This document shows positions 1,309 through 54,086 of a stretch of 54,446 nucleotides of DNA, in pieces. Source of the stretch: a virus. Taxonomy: Duplodnaviria > Caudoviricetes. The stretch spans positions 1 to 54,446 of the IMG/VR virus record IMGVR_UViG_3300046171_000011; one strand, written 5' to 3'. The notes beneath the pieces were generated by a model. That model searched no databases, was not told the origin of the DNA, and saw only the letters and a list, made by a program, of their open reading frames with translations. A program made the translations under genes and the position numbers. Every line of letters begins with the position of its first letter. The stretch's first letter is position 1.

Positions 1309-1326
1309 GATCAAAAGAGGTAAGAC

Positions 1327-1533: not shown

Positions 1534-1537
1534 ACAC

Positions 1538-2125: not shown

Positions 2126-2194
2126 TTTAATACTTGACAACAAAACCAGTCTATGCAAAAACTATAGACACAACAAACATAGAGGAGACAAAAA

Positions 2195-2434: not shown

Positions 2435-2436
2435 TT

Positions 2437-2818: not shown

Positions 2819-2831
2819 CAGGAGAGAGACA

Positions 2832-3020: not shown

Positions 3021-3754
3021 GTAAAGGTATAGTGATTAGTTTGTATGACTACACAGGTGAAGCATTGAAGCCATGGGCAGATGCAGGTTATGAGTGCTAC
3101 GCTTTTGATATACAGCATGACAAACATGAGATAACAAAAGAGTATTCACGCAAGCATAAGTCAGGCTCTATTGAGTATCTACATGCTGACCTGCATGACC
3201 ATCATGATCTGAACGCAATACATGATGCCTTCAAAGAGCTTGACGTAGTATTCGGCATGGCATTCCCTGTCTGTACTGACATGGCTGTGTCAGGTGCGGC
3301 ACACTTCAAGCGCAAGGCAGAGGCTAACCCATCTTTCCAAGATGAAGCCGTGAGCTATGCAGTGTGGTGTGCTAGGTTGTTCAACAGTTTAGGTGTGCCA
3401 TACTTCATAGAAAATCCTGTGTCAGTATTGGCTACCAAGTGGCGCAAGCCTGACTATTCGTTCCACCCTTATGAGTATGGTGGATACATACCAGATGATC
3501 AAGCGGCACATCCAGTGTGGCCTGACTATATCGCACCGAAAGATGCGTACCCAAAAAAGACTTGTCTTTGGACAGGCAATGGGTTTAGTATGCCTTGGAC
3601 TGATCCAGTAGAACCAGAGCAAGGACATAGTAGACAACACCTAAAGTTAGGTGGTAAAAGTATGAAGACCAAGAACATACGCAGTGCTACGCCAAGAGGT
3701 TTTGCACAGGCGGTGTATGAATTTAACTCAGTAGAACAAATGGAGACAGTATAA
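3017..3754 (+). CDS. Phage DNA cytosine-C5 methyltransferase (Dcm-like)
   Basis: SAM-binding-like VISLYDYTG and FDI, catalytic FPVCTD, IENPV, KKTCLW and RSATPRGFA motifs. Confidence 0.8.
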   Translation: MSKGIVISLYDYTGEALKPWADAGYECYAFDIQHDKHEITKEYSRKHKSGSIEYLHADLHDHHDLNAIHDAFKELDVVFGMAFPVCTDMAVSGAAHFKRKAEANPSFQDEAVSYAVWCARLFNSLGVPYFIENPVSVLATKWRKPDYSFHPYEYGGYIPDDQAAHPVWPDYIAPKDAYPKKTCLWTGNGFSMPWTDPVEPEQGHSRQHLKLGGKSMKTKNIRSATPRGFAQAVYEFNSVEQMETV

Positions 3755-4002: not shown

Positions 4003-4029
4003 TATTGAACAGTTAAGAGGAGACAAAAA

Positions 4030-4404
4030 GTGACAACGTTTAGCAGAGAAGAACTAAAAGCAATTCGTGTAGCAATGCAGGATGCACTAGATGCGCTTGA
4101 CATTGATGTCACAATCAAGGTAGGCAACTGTACCTATGACGGTGGCGAGGCTAAGTATACAGTCAAGCTAGTGAAGCAAGGCGCAGTGACACAAGAAGAA
4201 AGTGCTATGACTTTTTGGGCAGATACTATGCACCTTGACACAAACAAGATCGCTAAGATCAATGGACAAAGTGTCACATTGCATAGCTATAAAAGCAAAG
4301 CTAAGAAGTATCCATGGATCGTTGCAAGCCTGACAACAGACAGCAAGTGGAAGCTATCAGATAGTCAGGTCAAGCGTATGTTTAGTAAGGAGACAGTAGC
4401 ATGA
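4030..4404 (+). CDS. Hypothetical protein
   Basis: GTG start with a GAGGAGACA RBS. Confidence 0.75.
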   Translation: MTTFSREELKAIRVAMQDALDALDIDVTIKVGNCTYDGGEAKYTVKLVKQGAVTQEESAMTFWADTMHLDTNKIAKINGQSVTLHSYKSKAKKYPWIVASLTTDSKWKLSDSQVKRMFSKETVA

Positions 4405-4742: not shown

Positions 4743-4957
4743 TGACATATGATAAATTGCTTAGAGAAATGTCTGGTGCTTTTCTGACCACACCTTTACC
4801 CGAATACTGGAATGGTCTATCTGACAACACACTAGAGCAATGGGTAAAGGAAAACATCTATGAACCCTACGAGAATTGGGATTTTATGGAGTTGATTTAT
4901 CAAATAGAAAATGTTACTGACGTAGCATGGAAACACTTGAAGGAGACAAACCAATGA
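4742..4957 (+). CDS. Hypothetical protein
   Basis: TAATG coupling. Confidence 0.7.
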   Translation: MTYDKLLREMSGAFLTTPLPEYWNGLSDNTLEQWVKENIYEPYENWDFMELIYQIENVTDVAWKHLKETNQ

Positions 4958-5211: not shown

Positions 5212-5214
5212 CTT

Positions 5215-5471: not shown

Positions 5472-5706
5472 CCCCTATGATGATGTTACGCATTGGGTTG
5501 GTAAGCTACCTAAAGAAGATACTGATAGCGACAAGCGTACTGATGAACGTGATACTAGGCGGCAAGCTAAACCAGACATTCTCAGCGAGGAATTGGAGTG
5601 GAAAAGAAACGGTAAGCCTAATATCAGTTGGCTTATAGATAAGATACTAGGTAAGGATCACTGTAGTAGATGTTGGTCTTACTGGAAAACAAGGAGACAA
5701 TGGTAA
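5468..5706 (+). CDS. Hypothetical protein, probably frameshifted near 5595
   Basis: The frame from ATG 5468 (AGGAG RBS) reads ...NVILGGKLNQTFSARNW and continues as EWKRNGKPNISWLIDKILGKDHC in another frame. Confidence 0.45.
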
Positions 5707-5707
5707 C

Positions 5708-7659: not shown

Positions 7660-7660
7660 C

Positions 7661-8455: not shown

Positions 8456-8661
8456 TGCCATACGCAGTTGAGATTGAGATTGAGTTAGGTGAGTACACCT
8501 TTGTCCGTAAGGAGAACCCTTGGACAGAAGAACATAAGGTATGGGTATTCAGTAACCTACATGAAGCAGAAGAAGAAGCTAGACGTTGGGCTACAGGTAG
8601 GGTAGTACCTTACATTAGACCAATGACAAAAGAGGAGAGACAACGAGGAAAGGATAAGTAG
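8452..8661 (+). CDS. Hypothetical protein
   Basis: ATGA overlap with thyX; GGGAG RBS. Confidence 0.7.
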   Translation: MMPYAVEIEIELGEYTFVRKENPWTEEHKVWVFSNLHEAEEEARRWATGRVVPYIRPMTKEERQRGKDK

Positions 8662-8662
8662 T

Positions 8663-8935
8663 ATGTTTACTGTTGAGTTTGAACCAGACGCATCTATAAT
8701 ACGTAGCCTTGATGAAACCGGGAAACATGAGGACGTTGAAGTTATTATAGGTGATGATGCTGTTGTATATATACGTCAGTGGGACACAGATTTTGAGGCA
8801 TATCAAATGTTGATCTTGACATACCAACAGCTACTGGATATAACTGCATCCCTTAATACACCAGAAGGTATGCACAGACTAATGAGAGGAAGACAATATG
8901 ATGGAACTGGCCTTGGTCAAAACTCTACTAAGTAG
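8663..8935 (+). CDS. Hypothetical protein
   Basis: ORF with an AAGGA RBS, upstream of the helicase. Confidence 0.7.
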   Translation: MFTVEFEPDASIIRSLDETGKHEDVEVIIGDDAVVYIRQWDTDFEAYQMLILTYQQLLDITASLNTPEGMHRLMRGRQYDGTGLGQNSTK

Positions 8936-10124: not shown

Positions 10125-10133
10125 GACGTAGAC

Positions 10134-12182
10134 ATGAGACTTGTATTAGATGTTGAGAACAGCGTCACATGGCGTGATGGTAAGATACATAACGATCCCT
10201 TTGAACCTAACAATACTCTTACACAGGTGGGGATTATCAATGCAGATAACAAAGAAGAGTTACATATTGTAACCCTTGATCACGTAGAACATAAGGATGT
10301 GTCTGGCTCTGGTAGAAAACTTATTCAAGACATCCTTGACATGACTACCCTTTTGATTATGCACAATGCTAAGCATGATCTGATGTGGCTGTGGGAGTGC
10401 GGCTTTAAATATGAAGGAGATATATATGACACTATGTTAGCAGAGTACATACTGGCAAGAGGACAGAAGACACCTGTCAACTTAGCAGCTTGTGCTATCC
10501 GTAGAAATCTAGCAGAGCAGAAAGAGGACTACTTATCTGCCTGTCTAAAGAAAGGGATAAACACAAATGAAACCGATCTATCTCAGCTTAGCCTTTATCT
10601 TAGGCATGACCTGCTCACAACTTGTGAGTTGTTCCACAGTATCGAATCAGACTATTCCAAACCAGAATCAGAGTCCCTTGCTGCCGTCAAACGTGTCACC
10701 TTCGACACATGCAGAACCCTCACAGAACTGTACATGCAAGGAGTCAAGGTTGATCTTTCGGAGCTTGGGCGAGTAAAGGAACAGTTTGAAAGAGAGAAGG
10801 CAGACATAGAAGACAGACTGCAAAAGAAGATACGTGAGCTTATGGGTGATACACCTATCAATGCTAACTCACCAGAGCAGATGTCTCAGGTAGTTTTCAG
10901 TAGACGTATACACAATAAGAAGGAGTGGGCAGACCTATTTAACTTTACTGAAACACCTGCAGAGTTCAAGGCTGCAGTCAAGGCAAACAGTTCTACTATC
11001 TACAAGACAAAGGCGTTCACTTGTCCTGTCTGTAGTGGGCAAGGAAAAACGTATAAAGTAAGGAAGGATGGAACAAAGTATGCAAGACCCAATAAATGTA
11101 AGGCGTGTGACGCAAGAGGCTACCAACTAAAGGAAACTAATCAAGTAGCAGGTCTGCGTTTTTCTGCCCCTAGCAAGAAGTGGACAAGTAACCATGGGTT
11201 CAGCACAGGAAAGAGTAACTTAGATGTACTCATGGCTACTGCAAAGAACAACAACATGCAGGATGCCGGAGACTTTCTGGCTGACCTAAAGCGTTTGTCT
11301 GCTGTCAGCAGTTACCTGTCTTCGTTTGTTGAGGGTATTGCTACCAACACCAAGGAAGATGGCAGGCTTCACGTACAGCTTACGCAACACATCACTGCAA
11401 CAGGAAGGTTTAGTGGTAAGCAACCCAACATGCAGAACATGCCAAGAGGTAACACATTCCCTGTCAAGAAAGTGTTTGTGTCTCGTTGGGATGGCGGCTA
11501 CATATGTGAGGCTGACTTTGCTCAGCTTGAGTTTCGTACTGCAGCATTCTTAGCACAGGACAAGGTTGCTATGGAAGAGATTGACACAGGGTTTGATGTA
11601 CACAGCTACACCGCTAAGGTTATCAGTGATGCAGGACAGAAGACATCACGTCAGGATGCTAAGGCTCACACCTTCGCACCTCTCTTTGGTGCTACTGGAT
11701 ACGGTAGGTCTAAGGCTGAGCAAGCATACTACACACACTTCATTGAGAAATACAAAGGCGTAGCAGCGTGGCACAAGGACTTAGGCAACCAAGCACTACG
11801 TCTAAACAAGATCACCAGTAAGTCAGGTAGGCAGTATGCTTTCCCTGATGTAACACGAAGAGCAAACGGATCACCGTCACACTTCACTATGATTAAGAAC
11901 TATCCAGTGCAGGGCTTTGCTACTGGTGATGTTGTCCCGGTTGTTCTAAATGAAATGCACAAACGTCTAGAGAGTATGCACTCATGTTTGGTAAACACAG
12001 TACATGATTCAACCGTGATTGATGTGCATCCAGAAGAGAAAGATCAGGTACTACAAATCGTACAAGACTTAAACGATAATCTAGTTGAGTTGATAGAGGA
12101 AGCCTATAACATTACTATGAATGTACCTCTATTATTAGAGGCTAAGATAGGCCCGAATTGGCTTGACACGGTGGACGTTTAG
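10134..12182 (+). CDS. polA: Family A DNA polymerase with 3'-5' exonuclease and inserted DnaJ-like zinc finger
   Basis: Exonuclease motifs LDVE, HNAKHD, YLRHD; polymerase motifs TGRFS, DFAQLEFR, RQDAKAHTFAPLFG, NYPVQG, VHDS; insert CPVCSGQG...CKACDARG. Confidence 0.96.
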   Translation: MRLVLDVENSVTWRDGKIHNDPFEPNNTLTQVGIINADNKEELHIVTLDHVEHKDVSGSGRKLIQDILDMTTLLIMHNAKHDLMWLWECGFKYEGDIYDTMLAEYILARGQKTPVNLAACAIRRNLAEQKEDYLSACLKKGINTNETDLSQLSLYLRHDLLTTCELFHSIESDYSKPESESLAAVKRVTFDTCRTLTELYMQGVKVDLSELGRVKEQFEREKADIEDRLQKKIRELMGDTPINANSPEQMSQVVFSRRIHNKKEWADLFNFTETPAEFKAAVKANSSTIYKTKAFTCPVCSGQGKTYKVRKDGTKYARPNKCKACDARGYQLKETNQVAGLRFSAPSKKWTSNHGFSTGKSNLDVLMATAKNNNMQDAGDFLADLKRLSAVSSYLSSFVEGIATNTKEDGRLHVQLTQHITATGRFSGKQPNMQNMPRGNTFPVKKVFVSRWDGGYICEADFAQLEFRTAAFLAQDKVAMEEIDTGFDVHSYTAKVISDAGQKTSRQDAKAHTFAPLFGATGYGRSKAEQAYYTHFIEKYKGVAAWHKDLGNQALRLNKITSKSGRQYAFPDVTRRANGSPSHFTMIKNYPVQGFATGDVVPVVLNEMHKRLESMHSCLVNTVHDSTVIDVHPEEKDQVLQIVQDLNDNLVELIEEAYNITMNVPLLLEAKIGPNWLDTVDV

Positions 12183-12192
12183 GTGTATAACT
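12163..12192 (+). promoter_or_regulatory. Sigma70-type promoter
   Basis: TTGACA-N17-TATAACT at the end of the polymerase gene. Confidence 0.75.
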
Positions 12193-12224
12193 AAGGCTCT
12201 TTAACTCTATAGAAAGGTATAGAA

Positions 12225-13109
12225 ATGAGTACAGAACTAGCAGTAGCAGCAGAACGAGGACAGTCCATGGCTGAGCTAATGGGCGTGTCTGCAGGTGGTG
12301 GCAGTAGTGAAAGCACACCATCAATCTCACGTGTAGGCATGATCCATCAGCCTGTCATGGGTGAGGTAGACTTCAATGGTAAGACTATCAAGACAGAGAT
12401 TCTACCCATTGGAACATTTACTCTAAAGAAGGGTGATGATATTATCTACAGCCACAGTATTACACTGCGTATCTTCGCTCAGCGTAATCAGTGGCAGCGT
12501 TGGAACAGTGCATCAGAAGAGATGGAAAAGTCTGTGCTGTCTAACTCTCTTAATGGAGACTTGAAGGACAGCGTTGGTGGTTTCAATCTTGGTAGACCAT
12601 CAGGTTATATCGAAGACTTTCAAGCGTTGCCTGATGCTACGAAGCAAGTCATTCGTTCAGTCAAGCGTGTCGTAGTTTATTTTGGTACTGTTACATTAAA
12701 CAACCCTACAGACGCAGAAGGTAATCCATTAAATATTATGGAGTATACTGATGTGCCTGTTGTTATGGATGTAAAGAACCGTGATAGCTTGAAGAGTATC
12801 AATGGTGTATTAGGCAGTCTCAAGTCTAAGAACCTATTACCTATCATGTCAACTATCAAACTAAGTGGTGTAGAAGATAGCATTCCAACAGGTGCTACCT
12901 TTGGTAAGATTAGTGCTGCCCTTGGTGACAAGGTAGACATCTCTGACCATGACAACGATACACTGCGTGACTTTGTAGAGCTTATTGAGTACATGAACGG
13001 TAAGGTTCTTGACTTACACAATGAGCGAAATGATGCTGCTCTAAGTACAGAAGATGCCAGTATGGTAAAGGACATCATTGACAATGACTTCGTGGATGTA
13101 GACGAATGA
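12225..13109 (+). CDS. Putative ssDNA-binding protein
   Basis: Position after the polymerase and an acidic C-terminal tail (IIDNDFVDVDE); function is inferred. Confidence 0.6.
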   Translation: MSTELAVAAERGQSMAELMGVSAGGGSSESTPSISRVGMIHQPVMGEVDFNGKTIKTEILPIGTFTLKKGDDIIYSHSITLRIFAQRNQWQRWNSASEEMEKSVLSNSLNGDLKDSVGGFNLGRPSGYIEDFQALPDATKQVIRSVKRVVVYFGTVTLNNPTDAEGNPLNIMEYTDVPVVMDVKNRDSLKSINGVLGSLKSKNLLPIMSTIKLSGVEDSIPTGATFGKISAALGDKVDISDHDNDTLRDFVELIEYMNGKVLDLHNERNDAALSTEDASMVKDIIDNDFVDVDE

Positions 13110-13972
13110 ACCATCCTGCAGAACTAAAGGTCTTCAACTTCTTACAGAAGGCCATGGCAGGTGAAGCAACAATGACAGAAGAGGTGGCCCAACAGGTCGC
13201 CTCTGATGTTAAGACTGCTATGGATAAGCAGTTCAACTCAGGTCCACGTGGAGACTTTCGTTTACGTATGTCTAATATAGGTAAGCCTAAGTGTCAGCTA
13301 TGGTTTGAGAAGAACGATCCAGAAGATAAGAAGCCTTTCCCACCACACTTCCTAATCAACATGATCTTAGGTGATATAGTTGAGGCTGTGTTCAAAGGAC
13401 TACTACGCTCAGCAGACGTAGAGTTTAAGGACAACGATACCGTCACACTAAAGCTACCTCATGGTCAAGAGATCAAGGGTGAGTATGACATGGAAATGGA
13501 TGGCAAGATTGATGATGTTAAGTCTGCGTCACCTTGGTCATACAAGAATAAGTTTGCATCCTTTGATGCGCTGCAACAAGGCGACAGCTTTGGCTATGTG
13601 TCACAGCTTGTAGGCTACGCTACTGCAGCACAGAAGGGTGTAGGTGGTTGGTGGGTAGTCAACAAAGCAAACGGAGAGTTTAAGTATGTGGACGCATCTG
13701 AGGTAGATCAGGAAGAGGTTATAAACAACATACAAGAGACTGTAGATTACATAGATAGTGGTGCTAGTTTCACACGTTGTTTTGATCCTGTACCAGAAAC
13801 ATTCTATCGTAAGCCTACTGGTAATATAGTACTTCCTTCTGCTTGTAAGTGGTGTGACTTCAAACATAAATGCCACCCTAACTTACAAACACAACCAAGC
13901 AGGATGTCTAAAGCAGCTAACCCACCAGAAGTAGACTACGTATTCATAGGAGATGAAGGTGCGGCGGCATAA
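13106..13972 (+). CDS. PD-(D/E)XK exonuclease (Cas4/RecB-like)
   Basis: RMSNIGKPKCQLW, GEYD...DDVKS, QLVGY and C-terminal CKWCDFKHKC. Confidence 0.85.
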   Translation: MNHPAELKVFNFLQKAMAGEATMTEEVAQQVASDVKTAMDKQFNSGPRGDFRLRMSNIGKPKCQLWFEKNDPEDKKPFPPHFLINMILGDIVEAVFKGLLRSADVEFKDNDTVTLKLPHGQEIKGEYDMEMDGKIDDVKSASPWSYKNKFASFDALQQGDSFGYVSQLVGYATAAQKGVGGWWVVNKANGEFKYVDASEVDQEEVINNIQETVDYIDSGASFTRCFDPVPETFYRKPTGNIVLPSACKWCDFKHKCHPNLQTQPSRMSKAANPPEVDYVFIGDEGAAA

Positions 13973-14384
13973 TAAAAGAATATATCGCAGTGGCCTTGAA
14001 GAAGAGGCTGCTGCTTTCTTAAAGTCTAGACAGAAGGTAGTAGCATATGAAAAGTTAAAGATAGAATGGGAAGACCTAAAGTATAGAACTTACACACCTG
14101 ACTTTGAGTTAGACAACGGTATCATCATAGAGACTAAGGGTATCTTTAGTGCGGCAGATCGTCGCAAGCACATTGAAATACAGAGACAACACTCTAGCTT
14201 AGACATTAGATTTGTATTCAGTAATGCTAAGGCTAAACTATACAAGGGTGCTAAGTCTAGGTACTGTGATTGGTGTGACACTAAAGGCTTTCAGTGGGCG
14301 CATCGTATCATACCTGAAGAGTGGTTAAAGGAGAAGGGTAAGAGAATGAAAGAGCAGCGTGTAAAGGTAAATAGGAGAGACTAA
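13953..14384 (+). CDS. T7 gp3-like endonuclease I / Holliday junction resolvase
   Basis: YRSGLE, YTPDF, IIETKG, DRRKH, DIRFVF motifs. Confidence 0.93.
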   Translation: MKVRRHNKRIYRSGLEEEAAAFLKSRQKVVAYEKLKIEWEDLKYRTYTPDFELDNGIIIETKGIFSAADRRKHIEIQRQHSSLDIRFVFSNAKAKLYKGAKSRYCDWCDTKGFQWAHRIIPEEWLKEKGKRMKEQRVKVNRRD

Positions 14385-14734
14385 TGGATATTAATGCAGG
14401 TGAAGTAGCCATCATCCTACGCCCTATGGAAGATGATAAGGGTGAATGGACAGGTGAACTAAAGACAGGTATTATGTTTGGAGATGAACGAATGCCTGAT
14501 GGTATGAGAGCAGCACTAGATGTGGCACTTACTATGGCATCAGCACAGTTCTTCTTAGAAGATAACCCGGAGTACTTGGAAGAGTTTGATTACCACAGGT
14601 CTGAGATACTAAGGGATATATTTCCTGACTTCTTTTCAGAGGTAGAAGCAGAGATAGAAGAAGAGAATAAGATTGAACGTGATGGCAACGTAATCAAGTT
14701 AAACAAGTGGACAAAGACAGAAGGTAGTGCATGA
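14384..14734 (+). CDS. Hypothetical protein
   Basis: TAATG coupling; AGGAG RBS. Confidence 0.75.
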   Translation: MDINAGEVAIILRPMEDDKGEWTGELKTGIMFGDERMPDGMRAALDVALTMASAQFFLEDNPEYLEEFDYHRSEILRDIFPDFFSEVEAEIEEENKIERDGNVIKLNKWTKTEGSA

Positions 14735-14958
14735 GTGATCCAGTAAACAATCCAATACATTACAATCAAGCAGGTATAGAATGCATTGATGCTATAGAAG
14801 CTATGACAGAGAATATGTCAGGTGCTATTGCACCACAGGCAGCAAATGTACTCAAGTATATGTGGCGCTGTGAATACAAGAATGGCTTAGAGGATATAGA
14901 CAAAGCTATCTGGTATCTCAATAGGTTACGTAAGCGTTGGGTGGAGACACACAAATGA
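14731..14958 (+). CDS. DUF3310 (T7 gp1.7-like) protein
   Basis: DPVNNPIHY, IECIDAI, NVLKY.WR..YKNG.EDI.KA.WYL motifs. Confidence 0.88.
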   Translation: MSDPVNNPIHYNQAGIECIDAIEAMTENMSGAIAPQAANVLKYMWRCEYKNGLEDIDKAIWYLNRLRKRWVETHK

Positions 14959-15125
14959 AGCGTAAGTTCAGCGTAACATACATAATGGAAGTAGATGAGT
15001 ACAACAATATCCTATCATCATTTGAGGACAACCATGAGGAAGATGTACATGATCTTATCGTAGATATAATGTATGACGTTGATGATATTAAAGTATACAA
15101 TCTAGTAGTGAAGGAAAGAGGATGA
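14955..15125 (+). CDS. Acidic hypothetical protein
   Basis: ATGA overlap; GGAGACA RBS. Confidence 0.7.
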   Translation: MKRKFSVTYIMEVDEYNNILSSFEDNHEEDVHDLIVDIMYDVDDIKVYNLVVKERG

Positions 15126-15484
15126 TTACACAGGAAGACATTGACGCATTTCAGCGTTTCAATGAGGTAGCAATGGACATGAGTGAGTACCAAGACGTTG
15201 CATCAGATACAGCTATCTACCCACCAGAGCATGAGATTATTTATCCTGCACTTGGCCTAGCTGCAGAGGCAGGTGAGGTAGCTAATAAAGTAAAGAAGAT
15301 ATTACGTGATGGTGCGTTTGATAAGGACGCTATTGCAGACGAGGTAGGTGATTGCCTCTGGTATATTGCGGCACTGTGTCGTGACTTGAGGGTTGACCTG
15401 TCAGAGGTGGCCTTTAATAATCTAAAGAAGTTACAAGATCGTAAGCAACGTGGTAAGCTACAAGGAAACGGAGACAAAAGATGA
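15122..15484 (+). CDS. mazG: MazG-like nucleotide pyrophosphohydrolase
   Basis: LGLAAEAGEVANKVKK, DEVGDCLWY and N..KL..R motifs. Confidence 0.9.
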   Translation: MITQEDIDAFQRFNEVAMDMSEYQDVASDTAIYPPEHEIIYPALGLAAEAGEVANKVKKILRDGAFDKDAIADEVGDCLWYIAALCRDLRVDLSEVAFNNLKKLQDRKQRGKLQGNGDKR

Positions 15485-17376
15485 GCAACTTATTACCAAC
15501 AGACTATCAATCATTTATACACAAATCACGTTACGCTAAATACTTTGATGGTAAGGGTCGTGAGAGTTGGAGTGAGACAGTAGGACGTTACATATCTAAC
15601 TTAGTTCATACCAAGGTAGAAGAAGATATAGCTAACGAGCTAGAGCAAGCTATTCTAGGGCAGGAGATTATGCCTAGTATGAGGGCTATGATGACAGCAG
15701 GGGCTGCACTTGATCGTGATAACACGGCAGGGTACAACTGTAGTTACCTACCCGTAGATGATCCTAAATCCTTCGACGAGGCTATGTTCATTCTCTTGTG
15801 TGGCACTGGAGTTGGGTTCAGTGTTGAGCGGCAGTTCATCTCTAAACTTCCCGAAGTCCCTGAGTTGTTCGACAGTGATACCACAATCGTCGTGAAGGAT
15901 AGTAAAGAAGGTTGGGCTAAGGCTTTCCGTCAACTGTTAGCACTCCTATGGGCAGGGGAAATTCCTAAGTGGAACACGTCTTTGATTAGACCTGCAGGTG
16001 CGAGACTTAAAACGTTTGGTGGTCGGGCATCTGGTCCTGCTCCTCTGATAGAACTGTTTAACTTTGCTGTGTCCGTATTCAAGGGCGCACAGGGGCGTAA
16101 GCTATCCTCTATGGAATGCCATGACCTAATGTGTTTCATTGGTCAGATCGTTGTTGTAGGCGGCGTACGGCGTAGTGCTATGATCTCTTTGTCTAACCTA
16201 AGTGATGATCGTATGCGCCACGCTAAGTCAGGTCAGTGGTGGGAGACTGCAGCACACAGGGCATTGGCTAATAACAGTGTGTCTTACACAGAGAAGCCAG
16301 ACATTGAAACGTTTATGCGTGAATGGACTGCGTTAATAGAAAGTAAATCAGGTGAGAGAGGTATATTTAATCGTGAAGCAAGTAAGAAGCAAGCTGCTAA
16401 GAATGGTAGACGCAATGCGGATCAAGAGTTTGGGACTAATCCGTGCAGTGAAATCATCCTTCGTCCATATCAGTTCTGCAATCTTACAGAGGTGGTGGTA
16501 CGGTCCACAGATACGGTGGAAGACTTGGCTAGAAAGGTCAGACTCGCCACAATACTTGGGACGATCCAAAGCACGTACACAAAGTTCCCCTACCTCAGAA
16601 AAATCTGGCAGAAAAACACAGAAGAAGAACGGCTCTTAGGTGTATCTCTGACAGGTATTATGGACAACAATTTAATGACAACACAAAACAAAGGATTGGA
16701 GAAAACCCTTGAACATCTACGGAATATTGCAATATCTACGAACATGGAATGGTCTAAGTATCTTGGCATTGAGCCTAGTGCTGCTATTACTTGTATCAAG
16801 CCATCTGGCACAGTCTCGCAACTCGTTTCCTGCGCCTCTGGAATCCATGCCAGACATTCAGACTACTATATTAGAACAGTCAGAGGCGACAACAAAGACC
16901 CCCTGACAAAGTTCATGGCTGATAGTGGTATACCTAATGAGCCTTGTGTGTTTAAGGGTGATACTACAACTGTGTTTAGTTTCCCTGTTAAGTCACCAGA
17001 GAGTGCGGTAACACGTAATGATATGTCTGCTATAGAACAACTAGAGACATGGCTAACATATCAGCGTCACTGGTGTGAACATAAACCTAGTGTGACAATC
17101 TCTGTGCGTGACCATGAGTGGCTAGATGTAGGTGCATTCGTGTACCGACACTTTGATGAGATGTCAGGTGTGTCATTTTTACCACACTCAGATCATACAT
17201 ATCAGCAAGCACCGTATCAAGACTGTACTAAAGAGCAGTATAAAGAGATGGCTGATCAGATGCCAAAGGCTATTGATTGGGCTGCACTAGGTACGTATGA
17301 GCATGAAGATAACACAGTAGCTATGCAGACAATGGCTTGCTCTGGTGATAGCTGTGAGATTGTGGACTTGGTATGA
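15481..17376 (+). CDS. nrdJ: Class II (adenosylcobalamin-dependent) ribonucleotide reductase
   Basis: YNC, GTGVGF, GGVRRSA, TNPCSEI, CNLTE, KPSGTVS and C-terminal CSGDSC; no class I beta subunit seen nearby. Confidence 0.9.
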   Translation: MSNLLPTDYQSFIHKSRYAKYFDGKGRESWSETVGRYISNLVHTKVEEDIANELEQAILGQEIMPSMRAMMTAGAALDRDNTAGYNCSYLPVDDPKSFDEAMFILLCGTGVGFSVERQFISKLPEVPELFDSDTTIVVKDSKEGWAKAFRQLLALLWAGEIPKWNTSLIRPAGARLKTFGGRASGPAPLIELFNFAVSVFKGAQGRKLSSMECHDLMCFIGQIVVVGGVRRSAMISLSNLSDDRMRHAKSGQWWETAAHRALANNSVSYTEKPDIETFMREWTALIESKSGERGIFNREASKKQAAKNGRRNADQEFGTNPCSEIILRPYQFCNLTEVVVRSTDTVEDLARKVRLATILGTIQSTYTKFPYLRKIWQKNTEEERLLGVSLTGIMDNNLMTTQNKGLEKTLEHLRNIAISTNMEWSKYLGIEPSAAITCIKPSGTVSQLVSCASGIHARHSDYYIRTVRGDNKDPLTKFMADSGIPNEPCVFKGDTTTVFSFPVKSPESAVTRNDMSAIEQLETWLTYQRHWCEHKPSVTISVRDHEWLDVGAFVYRHFDEMSGVSFLPHSDHTYQQAPYQDCTKEQYKEMADQMPKAIDWAALGTYEHEDNTVAMQTMACSGDSCEIVDLV

Positions 17377-17597
17377 CATACGTAGTTGTATCACGTAGCG
17401 AGTGTCCCTTCTGCACTATGGCTACAGAGTTACTAAAAGAAAAGGGGGTAGCATACACATGCTACTCTCTAGAGTCCTCTCGTTGGGTGCTTGACCTGTT
17501 TAAGAAATCCAATATAACTACTGTACCTCAGATATGGGATACAGAAGGAAATCATATTGGTGGTTACAAAGAACTAGAAACTAAGCTCAGTAAATAG
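17373..17597 (+). CDS. Glutaredoxin
   Basis: CPFC active site, TVPQI and HIGGY motifs. Confidence 0.92.
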   Translation: MTYVVVSRSECPFCTMATELLKEKGVAYTCYSLESSRWVLDLFKKSNITTVPQIWDTEGNHIGGYKELETKLSK

Positions 17598-17605
17598 GAA
17601 GAGTA

Positions 17606-18031
17606 ATGCAAAGAATAAAAGCGTTTAACAAACTACTACAGAACGTATACTTAAATGCATCAAGACCACCACCCACTAGAGTTTCAGGTACAGAAACAGA
17701 CTATGCTAGACAACACACTAAAGAAGTAGACCTTACAGCAGAGTATCTTATGAACCTGTTTTATGAAAAGCAAGAAAGAAAATGTTACTGGTTAGGGATT
17801 GAGCTTAATCCTGCTTGGATATTTGAGTCGGGGCATCCTCTATCTCTAAGTGTTGATAGACTAGGGACAGACTACTTACAGGGTGAGGTAGTAATATCTT
17901 GTAGGCTTGCCAATCTAGGTAGAAGGGACTACCCCGAAGAGGCTTTTAAAGACGTAGTAACATACTTAAAATCACAGTGGGGTTGGGATGGTTTTCTTTG
18001 CGATCCACCCATTCAACAGGAACTTTTTTAA
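17606..18031 (+). CDS. Hypothetical protein, possible His-Me-finger (HNH-like) endonuclease
   Basis: Pattern Q..KCYW...SLSVDR...Y..G.V...C...N. Confidence 0.55.
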   Translation: MQRIKAFNKLLQNVYLNASRPPPTRVSGTETDYARQHTKEVDLTAEYLMNLFYEKQERKCYWLGIELNPAWIFESGHPLSLSVDRLGTDYLQGEVVISCRLANLGRRDYPEEAFKDVVTYLKSQWGWDGFLCDPPIQQELF

Positions 18032-18741
18032 TGAACGAACTTGAGCCACCAAAGAAGCAAACACGGTCACGCAGAAAGACAAACTACAAGAACGCAGCTA
18101 ACAAAAGAGTATCAGGTTTTGTACCACGAACAGAACGACAGAAGCAGCTATGGGATGCAATGCGTGACAGTACACAGGTCATGGTGCTTGGCCCTGCAGG
18201 TACAGGTAAGACTTATGTAACAGCCACCCACGCTGCTGATCTGTATACACTGAAAGATATTGACAGGATAGTTATAACTAGACCTCATATATCTGTAGGT
18301 AAAGACATAGGGTTTCTTCCGGGTTCACTTGAAGAGAAGACCTACCCATGGGCATTGCCTGTGCTTGACGTACTGCAGAAACACTTAGGTAAGGGTGCAG
18401 TAGACACAGCCATAAAGAATGGTAACATTGAGATGTCTCCCTTGGCACTGATGCGAGGGCGTAGCTTTGATAGTTCATTCATCATAGTAGATGAAACACA
18501 GAACATTACAACGCATGAGCTAAAGATGTTGTTGACACGTGTGGGAGAAGGTAGTACAATAGTACTCAATGGTGATGCACAGCAGTCAGACTTAAAAGAG
18601 GCAGATGGTCTATCTAAGATCATTCACTTAGCTAAGAAACATATGCTACCTGTACCCATCATTGAGTTTGGTGTAGAGGATATTGTACGTAGTGACATCT
18701 GTGCAGAGTGGGTAAAAGTATTTATGGATGAAGGTTTATGA
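18031..18741 (+). CDS. phoH: PhoH-like ATPase
   Basis: GPAGTGKT, GFLPG, MRGRSF, DETQN, LTRVGE and GD..QSD motifs. Confidence 0.95.
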   Translation: MNELEPPKKQTRSRRKTNYKNAANKRVSGFVPRTERQKQLWDAMRDSTQVMVLGPAGTGKTYVTATHAADLYTLKDIDRIVITRPHISVGKDIGFLPGSLEEKTYPWALPVLDVLQKHLGKGAVDTAIKNGNIEMSPLALMRGRSFDSSFIIVDETQNITTHELKMLLTRVGEGSTIVLNGDAQQSDLKEADGLSKIIHLAKKHMLPVPIIEFGVEDIVRSDICAEWVKVFMDEGL

Positions 18742-50695: not shown

Positions 50696-51060
50696 TCGTT
50701 TGTACCTTCTTTAGGTGGTAAATAGAAAATGCCACCACCACTGGTAACATCTACTTTGTCTACTTTACCAAGACCTGCTCTGTCAAGCACATCTTTGGCA
50801 GCTATCATTTTTTCTTTGATACCCAACTCAGTGGGATCTTGCAAAGCGCCCATAAGCGCAAAAGCAGCTTTAGGGGCAGTCCTAGCAAAGTAAGTACGAG
50901 TCTTTTCAGCGATTTCATCTTTTAGTGCCTCCACTATTGCAGTTGTACTGGTGTTGTCGCCGTAACCTGCCAACTTTTTAGCTGCGACAACATCACCATT
51001 AGCCTCATCAAATAATACATCTAAGAATCGCTGCTGCTTATCAGTCAGAGTTCTCGCCAT
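50692..51060 (-). CDS. Putative terminase small subunit
   Basis: N-terminal LTDKQQRFL...A..LAGY HTH and AKDVLDRAG motif; upstream of terL. Confidence 0.65.
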   Translation of the reverse strand: MARTLTDKQQRFLDVLFDEANGDVVAAKKLAGYGDNTSTTAIVEALKDEIAEKTRTYFARTAPKAAFALMGALQDPTELGIKEKMIAAKDVLDRAGLGKVDKVDVTSGGGIFYLPPKEGTNE

Positions 51061-51202
51061 AAACTATTCCTTGTATTTGTGAGCGATGAATGCCTATGTC
51101 TTTTAGGTCACGGTCACTCAGTGTATTCAGTAGTATGTATTCTGCTCTGCGCTTCTGTCCATTTTCAATCGCTTTAAACGCAGCTTTAAACCACTTTTTC
51201 AT
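51041..51202 (-). CDS. DUF1127 (YjiS-like) small protein, 53 aa; not in the ORF track
   Basis: MKKWFKAAFKAIENGQKRRAEYILLNTLSDRDLKDIGIHRSQIQGIVYGENSD contains the L..LSDR.L.DIG..R..I signature; AAGGAG RBS. Confidence 0.85.
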   Translation of the reverse strand: MKKWFKAAFKAIENGQKRRAEYILLNTLSDRDLKDIGIHRSQIQGIVYGENSD

Positions 51203-51967: not shown

Positions 51968-52122
51968 TTTGCTTTCCGCTTTGTTGGATTAGATGCGCCA
52001 CACTTTGCGTACCCACCCTTGTTGTAACCCTTCTTCTTAGCCATGCCACCGTAGGCGTAGCCCATCTTCTTAGCTACTTCTGGTGCTTCTTTCTTTAGTG
52101 CCTTCATACCTTTGTTCATCAT
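51964..52122 (-). CDS. Small Lys-rich protein with YxxGG motifs
   Basis: MMNKGMKALKKEAPEVAKKMGYAYGGMAKKKGYNKGG. Confidence 0.65.
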   Translation of the reverse strand: MMNKGMKALKKEAPEVAKKMGYAYGGMAKKKGYNKGGYAKCGASNPTKRKAK

Positions 52123-52346
52123 TATGCTTTCCTCTTTCTTCCTGATGCTGTTGTAGACCACTTAACTTTTTTAGGTCCAGTTTTCTTTTGTGCCTCTTTC
52201 TTGCTTATCTTAGAGGCTACCTTTGCAGGTCTACAGGCAGGGTAGGACTTACGCTTCTCGCCAGACTTTCTGCCACATGGCTTGCCTGTCTTAACGTCTA
52301 CCCACTTCTCGTCAAACCACTGTCCAAGACCACCACGCTTAGCCAT
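52122..52346 (-). CDS. Small basic protein
   Basis: GL..WF.EKWVDVKTGKPCGR...YP.CRP motif. Confidence 0.7.
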   Translation of the reverse strand: MAKRGGLGQWFDEKWVDVKTGKPCGRKSGEKRKSYPACRPAKVASKISKKEAQKKTGPKKVKWSTTASGRKRKA

Positions 52347-52348
52347 TA

Positions 52349-52513
52349 TCATGCCACCTTGTTGTTGCCACCCTTCCACTTACCGCCTTTTTCTTTGTAC
52401 CACTTGGAAGCCCAAGCATTAGCATAAGCAGATGGGTATACTTTAAACTTCTTCTTAGCTGCTGCCTTAGCACGTGACCAAAGAGCAGGGTCTTTAGGAG
52501 TAGACTTAGCCAT
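52349..52513 (-). CDS. Small basic protein (54 aa; not in the ORF track)
   Basis: MAKSTPKDPALWSRAKAAAKKKFKVYPSAYANAWASKWYKEKGGKWKGGNNKVA. Confidence 0.75.
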   Translation of the reverse strand: MAKSTPKDPALWSRAKAAAKKKFKVYPSAYANAWASKWYKEKGGKWKGGNNKVA

Positions 52514-53476: not shown

Positions 53477-53743
53477 CTATCCAATACCTTCACGTTCTCT
53501 GTCAGGGTCTAGTACGTCTTTACGGTCTATCCAACCCTCTAAGTACATAGCTCTCTCTACGTGGTCTAGAGTGTAACGCACTCCTGTGTCACTTTCTATT
53601 GCTGCACGTACATAGAATACGTCAGACTTAGGAATGTGTATACGTCTTAGAGCTTTACTGTCTTCTGAGACTAAGGCAGAGTAAAACTCTTCTATTACGT
53701 TATCTGATGCATATAGTTTTACTTGTCTTTTCTTCAAAGTCAA
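53477..53743 (-). CDS. Hypothetical protein, first gene of the structural arm
   Basis: TTG start with an AAGG RBS; HIP.SDVFYVRAA motif. Confidence 0.65.
   Translation of the reverse strand: MTLKKRQVKLYASDNVIEEFYSALVSEDSKALRRIHIPKSDVFYVRAAIESDTGVRYTLDHVERAMYLEGWIDRKDVLDPDREREGIG
53715..53743 (-). promoter_or_regulatory. Promoter-like element
   Basis: TTGACT-N16-TAAAACT, same architecture as 42756-42784. Confidence 0.55.
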
Positions 53744-53754
53744 TACCTTATATT

Positions 53755-53879
53755 AAAAAATAAAGGTACGTGTCGCAAACTTACGTGTGAGAGGAGGAGA
53801 CATGAGGAAGAGTGACACATAATATTTGTGACACGTACCAGTGTAACACTTATTTGTTACGTTTATTATTGTGTTACTG
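53755..53879 (-). ncRNA. Candidate sRNA with an anti-Shine-Dalgarno loop
   Basis: Own promoter upstream, two hairpins, loop CUUCCUCAUGUCUCCUCCUCUC, ends in UUUAUUUUUU. Confidence 0.7.
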
Positions 53880-53884
53880 TAATT

Positions 53885-53913
53885 AGTATACAGATATAAG
53901 AAGAGTTTGTCAA
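53885..53913 (-). promoter_or_regulatory. Near-consensus sigma70 promoter
   Basis: TTGACA-N17-TATACT. Confidence 0.8.
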
Positions 53914-53917
53914 GGGA

Positions 53918-54040
53918 ATAGTTAAACTTTATAGTTAAACTCTTCCTATGTCCACTATCTTATTTGCAACACTCTTTATTTAGTTAAACTATCTTTTATT
54001 TATTACTTGATTAAGTTAAAACACTTAAAGTTTAACTATA
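53918..54040. repeat. TAGTTAAACT-type repeat cluster
   Basis: Copies at about 53919, 53932, 53981 and 54014, an inverted copy at ~54029, and a variant at ~54197. Confidence 0.7.
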
Positions 54041-54057
54041 CCCTGCTACTGCTACGC

Positions 54058-54086
54058 AGTTATACACATATATCAGGCTGTGTCAA
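54058..54086 (-). promoter_or_regulatory. Sigma70-type promoter
   Basis: TTGACA-N16-TATAACT. Confidence 0.7.

What the first reader, a model, noticed from the sequence alone, without database searches (positions are those of the whole stretch)
53755..53913. Phage sRNA whose loop is antisense to the RBS motif of the phage's own early genes
Seen: on the - strand, a near-perfect promoter (TTGACA-N17-TATACT, 53885-53913) precedes a ~125-nt gene-free unit. It has hairpin 1 (GUAACAC/GUGUUAC), then a long hairpin (GGUACGUGUCACAAA/UUUGCGACACGUACC plus an inner stem) closed by UUUAUUUUUU, which looks like an intrinsic terminator. The exposed loop is CACUCUUCCUCAUGUCUCCUCCUCUC. Its UGUCUCC(U)(C) core is the exact reverse complement of the (G)(A)GGAGACA motif found just upstream of at least eight + arm starts: 2182-2190, 3742-3748, 4017-4025, 4388-4395, 4941-4948, 5692-5699 (integrase), 14943-14949 and 15470-15476 (RNR). 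The ACA extension goes beyond a plain SD. Known: alphaproteobacterial cuckoo/CcsR/alpha-r14 sRNAs present CCUCCUCC-type anti-SD loops. Inference: a multi-target translational switch acting in early-gene shut-off, lysogeny maintenance (no CI-like repressor is visible) or host takeover.
Basis: partly seen in the sequence, partly recalled or inferred. Interest (0 to 1): 0.9.

Follow-up and report, generated by a model that had tools for sequence, protein, structure and literature searches.

The report
Roseophage leader RNA mirroring early ribosome sites
A marine Roseobacter phage and most of its close relatives carry a conserved folded RNA at the head of their structural-gene arm, and its open loop is the mirror image of a private tag on the ribosome-binding sites of their replication genes, so it probably switches those genes off, though no experiment has tested this.

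Summary
On the - strand, the window's only TTGACA-N17-TATACT promoter (53913-53885) precedes a ~122-nt ORF-free unit. It has a 5' hairpin with an A-rich loop, then a 75-nt hairpin with a 26-nt pyrimidine loop, then UUUAUUUUUU (folding z = -6).

A covariance model finds the unit in 73 of 80 related viral contigs and in phages CRP-207, CRP-2 and CRP-603. It does not find it in HMO-2011 or five other isolates. Compensatory changes and G:U pairs support an RNA read from the - strand. The loop core GUCUCC is better conserved than the stems.

At least 8 nt of loop complementarity occurs at 8 of 36 replication-arm starts and 0 of 46 structural-arm starts. ACA follows GGAG in 8 of 14 + arm sites, against about 1.4% in two Rhodobacterales genomes. 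Clades with other loops carry other RBS tags (identity ranks 1st of 24 clade permutations).

It is not a cuckoo/ar14 member. In layout it most resembles lambda's late-leader 6S RNA. No transcript or target is shown; two RNA-library contigs give only a weak hint. A cis-only leader role remains a serious rival.

Earlier notes of this scan describe similar anti-RBS RNAs in other phages; I did not check them.

The parts
54059..54086 (-). Upstream promoter-like site P1: TTGACA (54086-54081), 16-nt spacer, TATAAC (54064-54059)
   Evidence: Read. The same layout (TTGACT-N16-TATAAC-TGCGGAGCAG) is in CRP-207. Activity is inferred.
53885..53913 (-). Promoter-like site P2: TTGACA-N17-TATACT. The expected start is about 53878-53877.
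   Evidence: 11 of 12 matches. It is the only such match in the window. Activity is inferred.
53843..53877 (-). Hairpin H1: a 7-bp stem (GUAACAC/GUGUUAC) at the 5' end of the RNA, with a 21-nt A-rich loop
   Evidence: for the fold. One search gives double changes at 3 of 7 pairs. Loops are 57% A across 27 representatives.
53765..53839 (-). Hairpin H2: a long interrupted stem that carries the pyrimidine loop. It also serves as the stem of the terminator-like structure.
   Evidence: In one search, 10 of 21 pairs of the main helix show double changes, and there are many G:U pairs. The covariance model scores 112 bits on the sense strand and 28.5 bits on the antisense strand.
53789..53814 (-). 26-nt unpaired loop CACUCUUCCUCAUGUCUCCUCCUCUC. 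The core UGUCUCC lies at 53802-53796.
   Evidence: The loop is 88% pyrimidine across representatives, and the core GUCUCC is 78-96% conserved against 80% for stems.
53755..53764 (-). U tract UUUAUUUUUU directly after H2 (intrinsic-terminator-like)
   Evidence: Among 73 sense matches, 49 have at least 6 U in the 10 nt after H2, and all have at least 4 U. Two RNA-library contigs end at 53762 and 53766 (weak hint).
53477..53737 (-). First gene of the - arm (86 aa, unknown function). The probable start is TTG at 53737, inside the conserved GTRTTGAC(A/T) motif.
   Evidence: aligned with TTGACAATG in relatives. No Pfam or PHROG family. Its start region has only 4 nt complementary to the loop.
2182..2190 (+). 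GAGGAGACA, 9 nt complementary to the loop, 4 nt before the ATG of a 79-aa ORF
   Evidence: duplex -16.2 kcal/mol
3742..3748 (+). GGAGACA before the ATG at 3754 (82-aa ORF)
4017..4025 (+). GAGGAGACA before the GTG at 4030 (124-aa ORF)
   Evidence: -20.9 kcal/mol
4388..4395 (+). AGGAGACA before the ATG at 4401 (113-aa ORF)
4941..4948 (+). AGGAGACA before the ATG at 4954 (85-aa ORF)
5692..5699 (+). AGGAGACA before the ATG at 5708 (tyrosine integrase)
14943..14949 (+). GGAGACA before the ATG at 14955 (56-aa ORF)
15470..15476 (+). GGAGACA before the ATG at 15481 (ribonucleotide reductase)
   Evidence: Orthologues in G009, G010 and G008 keep GGAGACA.
10130..10138 (+). AGACAUGAG, spanning the start codon of the family A DNA polymerase gene; 9 nt complementary to the CUCAUGUCU part of the loop
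8883..8890 (+). UGAGAGGA before the DnaB-type helicase gene; 8 nt complementary to the 3' part of the loop
51041..51202 (-). 53-aa DUF1127 ORF in the same arm, 2.5 kb downstream. A possible RNA-binding partner; the link is not shown.
   Evidence: Pfam PF06568, E = 2.1e-9, 37.4 bits against a cut-off of 23.3. Present in 7 of 9 isolate records, including 4 that lack the RNA.

Best explanation
The unit is a conserved, structured, non-coding RNA transcribed from the strongest sigma-70-type promoter of the phage. It sits at the head of the packaging/structural/lysis arm.

I propose the following mechanism. Most transcripts stop at the U tract after hairpin H2 and give a ~120-nt RNA. Its 5' end is protected by hairpin H1. 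Its 26-nt pyrimidine loop is held open on top of H2. The loop pairs over 7-9 nt (about -12 to -21 kcal/mol) with the purine-rich translation-initiation regions of replication-arm genes. Many of these regions carry the private tag GGAGACA. The predicted targets include small early ORFs, the integrase, the helicase, the DNA polymerase and the ribonucleotide reductase. Pairing would mask the Shine-Dalgarno sequence or start codon and so lower their translation once the structural arm is switched on. Read-through of the same hairpin would give the mRNA of the structural arm, so the element would be leader and sRNA at once, as lambda's PR'-tR' 6S RNA is.

Shown in silico: the promoter motif, the conserved fold, the strand, the seed-like conservation of the loop, the enrichment of complementarity, and the clade-wise change of loop and tag together.

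Inferred: transcription, termination, action in trans, repression, and timing.
For: (1) Fold. MFE z = -6.0.

(2) Conservation. Covariance model R1 finds a full-length sense match in the window and in 73 of 80 related IMG/VR loci. It finds one copy each in CRP-207, CRP-2 and CRP-603.

(3) Covariation on a sequence-only MAFFT alignment of 27 representatives. 85.0% of cells are paired, against 79.6% in shuffles (0 of 500 reach it). 14 pairs carry double changes (2 of 500). Slid controls give 21-55% paired.

(4) Strand. The sense score is 112 bits and the antisense score 28.5 bits. G:U pairs are frequent.

(5) Seed. The loop core GUCUCC is 78-96% conserved, against a mean of 80% for stems.

(6) Targets. 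At least 8 nt complementary: 8 of 36 + arm starts against 0 of 46 - arm starts (p = 0.00085). At least 7 nt: 12 of 36 against 3 of 46 (p = 0.003). Median duplex energy is -13.9 against -9.1 kcal/mol (p = 3.6e-5). 0.3% of 1000 shuffled loops reach 12.

(7) Private tag. ACA follows GGAG in 8 of 14 + arm sites and 0 of 11 - arm sites. In two Rhodobacterales genomes, GGAGACA-N3-8-ATG makes up 48 of 3371 and 27 of 2042 GGAG-type sites, about 1.4%.

(8) Co-occurrence. GGAGACA before + strand ORF starts occurs 9, 4, 5 and 5 times in the four genomes with the RNA. It occurs 2, 2, 0, 0, 0 and 0 times in the six isolates without it.

(9) Clade-wise change. G001 and G002 have the loop GUUUCCUCUCUCU and + arm sites such as AUUAGAGAGAGG and GAGGAAACGA, with 10-12 nt matches. 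Mean z on the clade diagonal is 4.65, 2.95, 2.95 and 0.67. The identity assignment ranks 1st of 24 permutations.

(10) Precedent. Passages read in bioRxiv 10.1101/2024.10.31.621285 say that lambda 6S RNA is Hfq-bound and has one early-operon target in RIL-seq.
Against: - No transcript has been shown. The RNA-library contigs that end at 53762 and 53766 also run upstream past the P2 start, to 54064 and 54022. They therefore cannot come from P2, and carried-over DNA is not excluded.
- 24 of 36 + arm start regions lack a 7-nt match.
- The tag is not kept at orthologous sites. Among 15 integrase orthologues, none has GGAGACA at working distance from the start; CRP-603 has it abutting the ATG.
- Clade D gives no signal: G004 has 0 of 18.
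- The permutation test cannot go below p = 1/24.
- The genomes with the RNA form a related group, so co-occurrence with the tag may be shared ancestry.
- Any pyrimidine loop pairs with purine-rich ribosome sites. Shuffling controls for composition only.
- The U tract is weak (4-5 U in 10) in 24 of 73 matches.
- Its position in a leader fits a purely cis role equally well.
Confidence: 0.5

Rival explanations
1. Cis-only leader or attenuator. The promoter-proximal hairpin and U tract gate entry into the 35-kb structural operon by termination and antitermination, or by stabilising the mRNA. The short RNA would be a by-product. The pyrimidine loop would serve a protein (an antiterminator, S1 or Hfq), not an mRNA target.
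For: - The unit always sits between the promoter and the first gene of the - arm. In L018 and L019 it stays with the promoter, although an extra gene is inserted.
- The - arm holds terminase, portal and structural genes.
- The hairpin plus U tract is terminator-like.
- The RNA-library contigs cover the leader from upstream of P2.
- Lambda's PR'-6S-tR' layout is the textbook model (passages).
Against: - This reading does not explain why the loop core is conserved like a seed.
- It does not explain the enrichment of complementarity at + arm starts.
- It does not explain why loop and + arm tag differ together between clades.
- No Q-type antiterminator family appeared among the + and - arm proteins scanned with Pfam.
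- The start region of the first gene has only 4 nt complementary to the loop.
Confidence: 0.25
2. Host-directed mimic of anti-SD sRNAs. The loop imitates the CCUCC-type loops of the host's own cuckoo/CcsR sRNAs and mainly masks host ribosome-binding sites (takeover). It might work with the phage DUF1127 protein as a CcaF1-like partner.
For: - The loop contains CUCCUCCUC.
- The relatives' hosts are Rhodobacteraceae. That family carries cuckoo RNAs (table passages in PMC4615179).
- The phage encodes DUF1127. CcaF1 is a DUF1127 protein that binds CcsR RNAs (passages in PMC8034643).
- The cellular relative most identical over its matched segment (61%; a Paracoccaceae MAG) has an ar14 RNA about 280 nt downstream.
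Against: - DUF1127 is also present in four roseophages that lack the RNA.
- Only 1 of 18 cellular DUF1127 loci had an ar14 match.
- The conserved ACA extension is rare in two Rhodobacterales genomes, at about 1.4% of GGAG-type sites.
- No genome of a true host was examined.
Confidence: 0.12
3. DNA-level element. The inverted repeats are operators, or part of an origin or packaging site in the divergent control region, and not an RNA.
For: - The region between the arms holds repeated GTTTAACT/GTAACAC-type motifs and palindromes that overlap P2 in relatives.
- In CRP-207 the H1 arm sequence GTAACAC recurs upstream.
Against: - The covariance model shows strong strand asymmetry, 112 against 28.5 bits.
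- Many G:U pairs would be A-C mismatches on the other strand.
- The loop is pyrimidine-rich on one strand only.
Confidence: 0.05
4. The + strand mini-ORF MRKSDT is the real feature.
For: GGAGGAGACATG on the + strand looks like a ribosome site followed by a start codon.
Against: - The ATG is present in only 9 of 27 representative loops. CRP-2 and CRP-603 have none.
- No + strand promoter lies upstream of it.
Confidence: 0.01

Closest known systems
Lambda 6S RNA (PR'-tR' leader of the late operon)
   Same: Both are short RNAs made from a strong promoter directly upstream of the late or structural operon. Both end at an intrinsic terminator before the first late gene. [quoted passage not shown]
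   Different: There is no sequence or Rfam match. No Q-type antiterminator was found by Pfam. Here the terminator hairpin itself carries a long anti-RBS loop with many predicted targets in the phage's own genome.
Cuckoo / CcsR / ar14 sRNAs of Alphaproteobacteria (Rfam RF02344)
   Same: Both show pyrimidine, anti-Shine-Dalgarno-like hairpin loops, and the last hairpin doubles as a terminator; this is seen in the control RNA of L150. Both occur with Rhodobacterales. A DUF1127 gene lies in the same transcription unit. PMC8034643 passages say that in S. meliloti the RNAs appear to derive from the 5' UTR of the DUF1127 gene.
   Different: Here only one of the two hairpins carries the motif. H2 is 75 nt long, against the 24-50 nt range of the family definition (PMC4615179 passages). 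The exact CCUCCUCCC motif is absent. There is no RF02344 match at E <= 10. DUF1127 lies 2.5 kb away, not adjacent.
Staphylococcus aureus RNAIII C-rich loops (as described in PMC4615179; details of hairpin 14 are recalled)
   Same: C-rich hairpin loops pair with the ribosome-binding sites of several mRNAs. From recall, a terminator hairpin takes part.
   Different: RNAIII is chromosomal and 514 nt long, and its targets are host virulence genes. There is no homology.
Phage P1/P7 C4 and P4 CI immunity RNAs (recalled; no call)
   Same: They are phage RNAs cut from the leader of an operon. Their loops pair with sites, including a ribosome-binding site, in the phage's own transcripts.
   Different: Those RNAs act on one operon for immunity. 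No Rfam match to any such family was found here. Here the predicted targets are a dozen genes on the opposite arm.

Membership tests
Cuckoo / ar14 (RF02344) | 2-4 adjacent hairpins, each loop carrying CCUCCUCCC (PMC4615179 abstract passage) | tested here: not met
   Only H2 carries a CU-rich loop. H1 loops are 57% A. The window's loop has CUCCUCCUC but not CCUCCUCCC.
Cuckoo / ar14 (RF02344) | Hairpins of 24-50 nt with loops of 9-27 nt (PMC4615179 methods passage) | tested here: not met
   H2 is 75 nt long (53839-53765). Its 26-nt loop is within the range.
Cuckoo / ar14 (RF02344) | Match to the Rfam covariance model at the gathering score (58.8 bits) | tested here: not met
   No match at the gathering score or at E <= 10 over 53650-54000. 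As a positive control, the model scored 65.1 bits in locus L150.
Cuckoo CIN1 subgroup | Adjacency to a DUF1127 ORF | tested here: inconclusive
   A DUF1127 ORF is in the same arm but 2.5 kb downstream, with eight ORFs between. DUF1127 also occurs in 4 roseophages that lack the RNA.
Terminated trans-acting sRNA (general class) | Own promoter and Rho-independent terminator, with no ORF | tested here: met
   Motifs only. The promoter scores 11 of 12. A hairpin and a 10-nt U tract follow. No conserved ORF is present. At least 6 U in 10 is found in 49 of 73 relatives.
Terminated trans-acting sRNA (general class) | A discrete transcript is observed | tested here: inconclusive
   Contigs from two RNA libraries of two studies end at 53762 and 53766. 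They extend upstream of the P2 start, carry no strand information, and may be DNA.
Terminated trans-acting sRNA (general class) | A conserved single-stranded seed with complementary targets | tested here: met
   The loop core is 78-96% conserved. Complementarity is enriched at + arm starts. Clade-wise covariation is seen. All of this is computational.
Lambda-type late leader (PR'-6S-tR') | A strong promoter and terminator directly upstream of the late operon | tested here: met
   for the motifs. The - arm holds terminase and portal genes.
Lambda-type late leader (PR'-6S-tR') | A Q-family antiterminator gene | tested here: not met
   No antiterminator family appeared among the proteins scanned with Pfam at E <= 0.01 or 0.001. 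Unknown families cannot be excluded.
Hfq-dependent sRNA | Binding to Hfq | not testable with these tools
   The only hints are an A-rich H1 loop and a U tail.

The most novel reading that the evidence does not exclude
One clade of the HMO-2011-type roseophages, a group among the most abundant in the ocean, may run a genome-wide early-to-late switch at the level of translation. Replication-arm genes would carry a private extension of the Shine-Dalgarno sequence. The leader of the structural arm would release an sRNA whose terminator loop is the exact complement of that extension. Tag and loop would drift together between lineages. The phage's own DUF1127 protein (CcaF1-like) may mature or chaperone this RNA. 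If so, the phage has rebuilt the host's CcaF1-CcsR design for its own timing.
Probability: 0.3. Interest if true: 0.8.

Novelty: new variant of a known kind. Interest (0 to 1): 0.62.

Why it matters
HMO-2011-type phages are among the most abundant marine phage groups (PMC9038755 abstract). In the passages I searched, that paper uses none of the words sRNA, promoter or terminator. Gene timing in these phages is therefore unexplored.

If the reading holds, this RNA would be a testable example of a phage timing its own replication genes by a multi-target anti-RBS RNA with a co-evolving private tag. It is present in three cultured phage-host pairs (CRP-2, CRP-207, CRP-603), so experiments are feasible. 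It would also extend the recent view that late-leader RNAs such as lambda 6S are regulators and not waste.

Full-text searches for 'roseophage' with 'sRNA' and for 'phage-encoded', 'small RNA' and 'anti-Shine-Dalgarno' together found no paper describing it.

Tried and rejected
- **Rfam.** The whole window at gathering scores gave 0 matches. The region 53650-54000 at E <= 10 gave only chance-level matches: rox2, a plastid 3' UTR and two miRNA families.
- **RNAalifold.** On the MAFFT alignment it recovered only the lower stems. I therefore counted pairs on the window's own fold mapped onto that alignment.
- **Pyrimidine-tract scans** of whole genomes were uninformative, because antisense strands of genes are pyrimidine-rich. 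A second scan limited to non-coding DNA crashed on an index error after five genomes and was dropped.
- **Masking of the first gene's ribosome site in cis.** Rejected: only 4 nt are complementary.
- **The + strand mini-ORF.** Rejected.
- **DUF1127 as a specific marker of the RNA.** Rejected: it is present in 7 of 9 isolate records, including 4 without the RNA. It was found in 6 of 10 viral contigs; the four without it are 19-63% complete fragments.
- **Q-type antiterminator or CI-type repressor.** None was seen by Pfam.
- **RNA libraries.** All four runs are kept as contigs. Parts of the stretch without cover mean nothing. X17 and X18 are only guessed to be RNA. X19 and X20 give low-depth pieces. 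I draw no conclusion on expression level.
- **Conserved TTGACA at the first gene's start.** I considered it as a third promoter. The -10 candidates (TAAAAC, TACAAC) lie in coding sequence, so this stays unresolved.
- **A + strand TTGTCA-N17-TATAGT** (53907-53935) overlaps the P2 -35 region. By eye it is not kept in the relatives.
- **Host.** No true host genome was examined. Two other Rhodobacterales genomes stood in.
- **Gene starts.** They come from my own heuristic. For one search I replaced 15670 by 15481, the first ATG of the 631-aa ORF, because orthologues align from residue 1. I also took several - arm starts from the ORFs and dropped the 50750 call. The six-frame calls used for other genomes include some spurious ORFs.
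- **Supplements.** I opened no supplementary file. The supplementary tables of PMC9038755 (orthologous groups, 207 metagenomic genomes) may bear on how widely the RNA and DUF1127 occur.
Full report
**What the window is.** The 54,446-base window is a whole virus record of an HMO-2011-type roseophage. Its nearest cultured relatives are Roseobacter phages CRP-207, CRP-2 and CRP-603. The genes form two arms.

- The + arm (about 60-18741) carries small ORFs of no known family and a tyrosine integrase. It also carries a primase-like protein, ThyX, a DnaB-type helicase and a family A DNA polymerase. Endonuclease I, MazG, ribonucleotide reductase, glutaredoxin and PhoH complete it.
- The - arm (53737 down to 18967) starts with small ORFs, one of them a DUF1127 protein. 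It continues with terminase, portal and the large structural genes.

I call the + arm 'early' and the - arm 'late' by analogy with other phages. This has not been measured.

- TTGACA (53913-53908), a 17-nt spacer and TATACT (53890-53885) form the only TTGACA-N16-18-TATAMT match in the window. Shuffles give a mean of 0.10. The scan rates it 11 of 12.
- The expected start is near 53878, directly at the foot of hairpin H1 (GUAACAC 53877-53871, GUGUUAC 53849-53843). The H1 loop has 21 nt and is A-rich.
- Hairpin H2 (53839-53765) has an interrupted stem of about 23 pairs. Its 26-nt loop CACUCUUCCUCAUGUCUCCUCCUCUC lies at 53814-53789.
- UUUAUUUUUU (53764-53755) follows at once.
- The fold has z = -6.0, and 0 of 200 shuffles fold as well.
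- A second promoter-like site, TTGACA-N16-TATAAC (54086-54059), lies 170 nt upstream. It is also seen in CRP-207.

**Is it a real, conserved RNA?** I searched viral contigs with the 86-aa first gene of the - arm. This gave 594 relatives, of which the best 80 were kept. Nearly all of their upstream regions show the same design.

- A covariance model built from 27 dereplicated sequences finds a full-length sense match in the window (112 bits) and in 73 of 80 loci.
- In L018 and L019 the unit lies further upstream, with the promoter. An extra gene has been inserted, so the unit belongs to the head of the operon and not to the 86-aa gene.
- The seven other loci (L060, L061, L064, L070, L072, L074, L078) have a different two-hairpin leader. 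Those hairpins also carry CU-rich loops.
- Among nine isolate records, the model finds one copy each in CRP-207, CRP-2 and CRP-603. It finds nothing significant in CRP-9, CRP-13, CRP-345, CRP-1, HMO-2011 or MW202701 (their upstream regions are shown).

I then counted pairs on the sequence-only MAFFT alignment, using the window's own fold as the structure.

- 85.0% of cells pair, against 79.6% in shuffles (0 of 500 reach it).
- 14 of 30 pairs have a change on both sides (2 of 500).
- 41 cells have such a change (0 of 500).
- Sliding the partners by 1-3 columns drops pairing to 21-55%.
- G:U pairs are common. One pair has U:G as its commonest form.
- The antisense strand scores only 28.5 bits.

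The functional strand is therefore the - strand, as RNA.

**The loop behaves like a seed.** Across the 27 representatives, H2 loops are 88% pyrimidine and H1 loops are 57% A. The loop core GUCUCC (53801-53796) is 78-96% conserved. The mean for stem columns is 80%, and for the whole loop 71%. The ATG that would start the + strand mini-ORF MRKSDT is present in only 9 of 27 loops, so that ORF is not the feature.

**Complementarity to + arm start regions.** GGAGACA occurs 10 times on the + strand. One copy is internal, and one is the element's own complement. None of the three - strand copies precedes a gene.

With the 30-nt loop region and start regions of -25 to +5:

| Measure | + arm | - arm | p |
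|---|---|---|---|
| At least 7 nt of perfect complementarity | 12 of 36 | 3 of 46 | 0.003 |
| At least 8 nt | 8 of 36 | 0 of 46 | 0.00085 |
| Median duplex energy (kcal/mol) | -13.9 | -9.1 | 3.6e-5 |

Shuffled loops reach 12 in 0.3% of 1000 trials (mean 3.07). The 12 sites include six small ORFs, the integrase, the helicase, the DNA polymerase (AGACAUGAG across the start codon), the reductase and two more ORFs.

The extension beyond the Shine-Dalgarno core is specific. After GGAG, ACA follows in 8 of 14 + arm sites and in 0 of 11 - arm sites; the - arm has ACU or ACC four times. I also counted two Rhodobacterales genomes reached through DUF1127 loci. These are not the host. There, GGAGACA-N3-8-ATG makes up 48 of 3371 and 27 of 2042 GGAG-type sites, about 1.4%, which is near the 1/64 expected by chance.

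**Co-occurrence and covariation.** I used a mechanical criterion: GGAGACA followed within 2-10 nt by a start codon that opens at least 45 codons. By this count the + strand has 9, 4, 5 and 5 such sites in the window, CRP-207, CRP-2 and CRP-603. It has 2, 2, 0, 0, 0 and 0 in CRP-9, CRP-13, CRP-345, CRP-1, HMO-2011 and MW202701. These two groups are also phylogenetic groups, so this is not independent evidence.

Ten longer viral contigs were fetched.

- **G001 and G002.** The loop reads CACCCUCCCUCGUUUCCUCUCUCUAAUA. Their + arm sites are of another flavour (GAGAGAGGAA, GAGGAAACGA, AUUAGAGAGAGG). They match their own loop over 8-12 nt at 5 of 41 and 3 of 34 starts. Most UGUCUCC-type loops match them at 0-2 starts.
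- **G003.** Two starts carry AGAGAGAAA, which matches its own GUUUCUCUCU loop.
- **G005.** Two of 17 starts match.
- **G004.** None of 18 starts match.

At clade level, the mean z-scores against shuffled loops are 4.65, 2.95, 2.95 and 0.67 on the diagonal, and -0.62 to 1.99 off it. The true assignment ranks first of 24 permutations, which is the best p such a test can give: 0.04.

At orthologous sites the tag turns over.

- The reductase gene keeps GGAGACA in 3 of the 4 clade-A orthologues aligned from residue 1. It keeps it in 0 of 5 outside the clade.
- The integrase has GGAGACA at working distance in the window only.

**Transcript evidence.** I laid four runs labelled or guessed as RNA; all are kept as contigs.

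- In an oligo-dT library (X20), the only pieces identical to the window are 53762-53912 and 53914-54064.
- In a metatranscriptome of another study (X19), a 257-nt contig with 8 differences covers 53766-54022.
- Both end within a few bases of the foot of H2 and the U tract, and neither has a loose end.
- Both reach upstream of the P2 start, and X20 reaches about 12 nt beyond the start I expect for P1.

By the tool's own standard this is a weak hint of an RNA 3' end there. It is no evidence for P2, and carried-over DNA cannot be excluded.

**Terminator.** In 73 sense matches, the 10 nt after H2 hold at least 6 U in 49, 5 U in 14 and 4 U in 10. All have at least 7 pyrimidines. Termination is therefore plausible in most relatives but probably partial in many. 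That fits a leader that both stops and reads through.

**Comparison with known systems.** Cuckoo/CcsR/ar14 RNAs are defined by 2-4 adjacent hairpins of 24-50 nt, each with a CCUCCUCCC loop (PMC4615179, passages). A subgroup lies next to DUF1127 genes. CcaF1, a DUF1127 protein, binds CcsR RNAs and helps to mature them (PMC8034643, passages).

The phage RNA fails those tests.

- Only one of its loops is CU-rich.
- H2 is 75 nt long.
- The exact motif is absent.
- There is no RF02344 match. The same model scored 65.1 bits next to a Paracoccaceae DUF1127 gene in a control.

However, it lies 2.5 kb away and is also present in four roseophages without the RNA. The link is therefore open.

In layout, the closest known is lambda's 6S RNA. 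It is a strong promoter and a terminated leader in front of the late operon. A recent preprint (passages) reports that it is Hfq-bound, has one early-operon target, and has no known role.

C-rich loops that mask ribosome sites are also known from S. aureus RNAIII (cited in PMC4615179). Leader-derived phage RNAs that pair with their own transcripts are known from P1 C4 and P4 CI; I recall these and did not check them here.

**Verdict.** A functional, conserved, - strand structured RNA is very likely (about 0.9). I give 0.5 to the reading that it acts in trans on the tagged ribosome sites of the replication arm. That is the best-supported reading, but it rests wholly on computation. I give 0.25 to a purely cis leader role, 0.12 to a mainly host-directed mimic, 0.05 to a DNA-level element and 0.01 to the mini-ORF.

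It is a new variant of known kinds (anti-SD-loop sRNAs and phage late-leader RNAs) and not a member of any curated family. Earlier notes of this scan report comparable anti-RBS RNAs in other, unrelated phages. I did not check them and they do not enter the score.

Noticed in passing
window 53735-53746 (- strand), and the same place in L007-L083, CRP-1, CRP-345 and HMO-2011: The start codon of the first - arm gene is embedded in a conserved GTRTTGACAATG motif (TTGACTTTG in the window). There is no Shine-Dalgarno sequence. The motif is kept even in phages that lack the RNA, and it does not covary with H2. It may be a protein or RNA-polymerase site, or an unusual initiation signal.
   Followed up: partly
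window 53914-54058 (- strand); CRP-2 L002 2880-3060: Between P1 and P2 lie repeated GTTTAACT / GTAACAC / GTTATTAC-type motifs and a highly conserved AGTGGACATAGG block. In CRP-2 and L049, near-palindromes (for example GTTTAAACATTAATGTTAAAC) sit inside the P2 spacer. This suggests an operator for an unidentified DNA-binding regulator.
   Followed up: no
window 53907-53935 (+ strand): A + strand TTGTCA-N17-TATAGT (10 of 12 matches) shares its -35 region with P2, back to back. Mutually exclusive divergent promoters are possible. By eye it is not conserved in relatives.
   Followed up: partly
window 51041-51202 (- strand): A 53-aa DUF1127 ORF (PF06568, 37.4 bits). It is found in all 7 roseophage isolates examined but not in HMO-2011 or MW202701. 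The cellular relative most identical over its matched segment (61%; a Paracoccaceae MAG, L150) is followed by a true ar14/cuckoo RNA.
   Followed up: partly
L060, L064, L070, L072, L074, L078 (upstream of the gene match): A more distant group of relatives has a different leader. The first hairpin has a UUUCUCUCUCCCUCCUUAGACCC loop. The second has an AUC(C/U)UUCCUUUCG loop, followed by UUUUUACCCCCUCCUUA. The same idea appears with a different architecture, and model R1 does not find it.
   Followed up: partly
window 52122-52513 (- strand): Two adjacent small ORFs (54 and 76 aa) match the first and second halves of DUF5872 (profile positions 1-40 and 52-107 of 116). This may be a split or frameshifted gene.
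   Followed up: no
G001/G002 (L029, L032) H1 loops: In this clade the H1 loop also holds a CU-rich stretch (CUCUCUCCUG / CCCUCCUG), so both hairpins show anti-SD-like sequence. That is closer to the cuckoo design.
   Followed up: no
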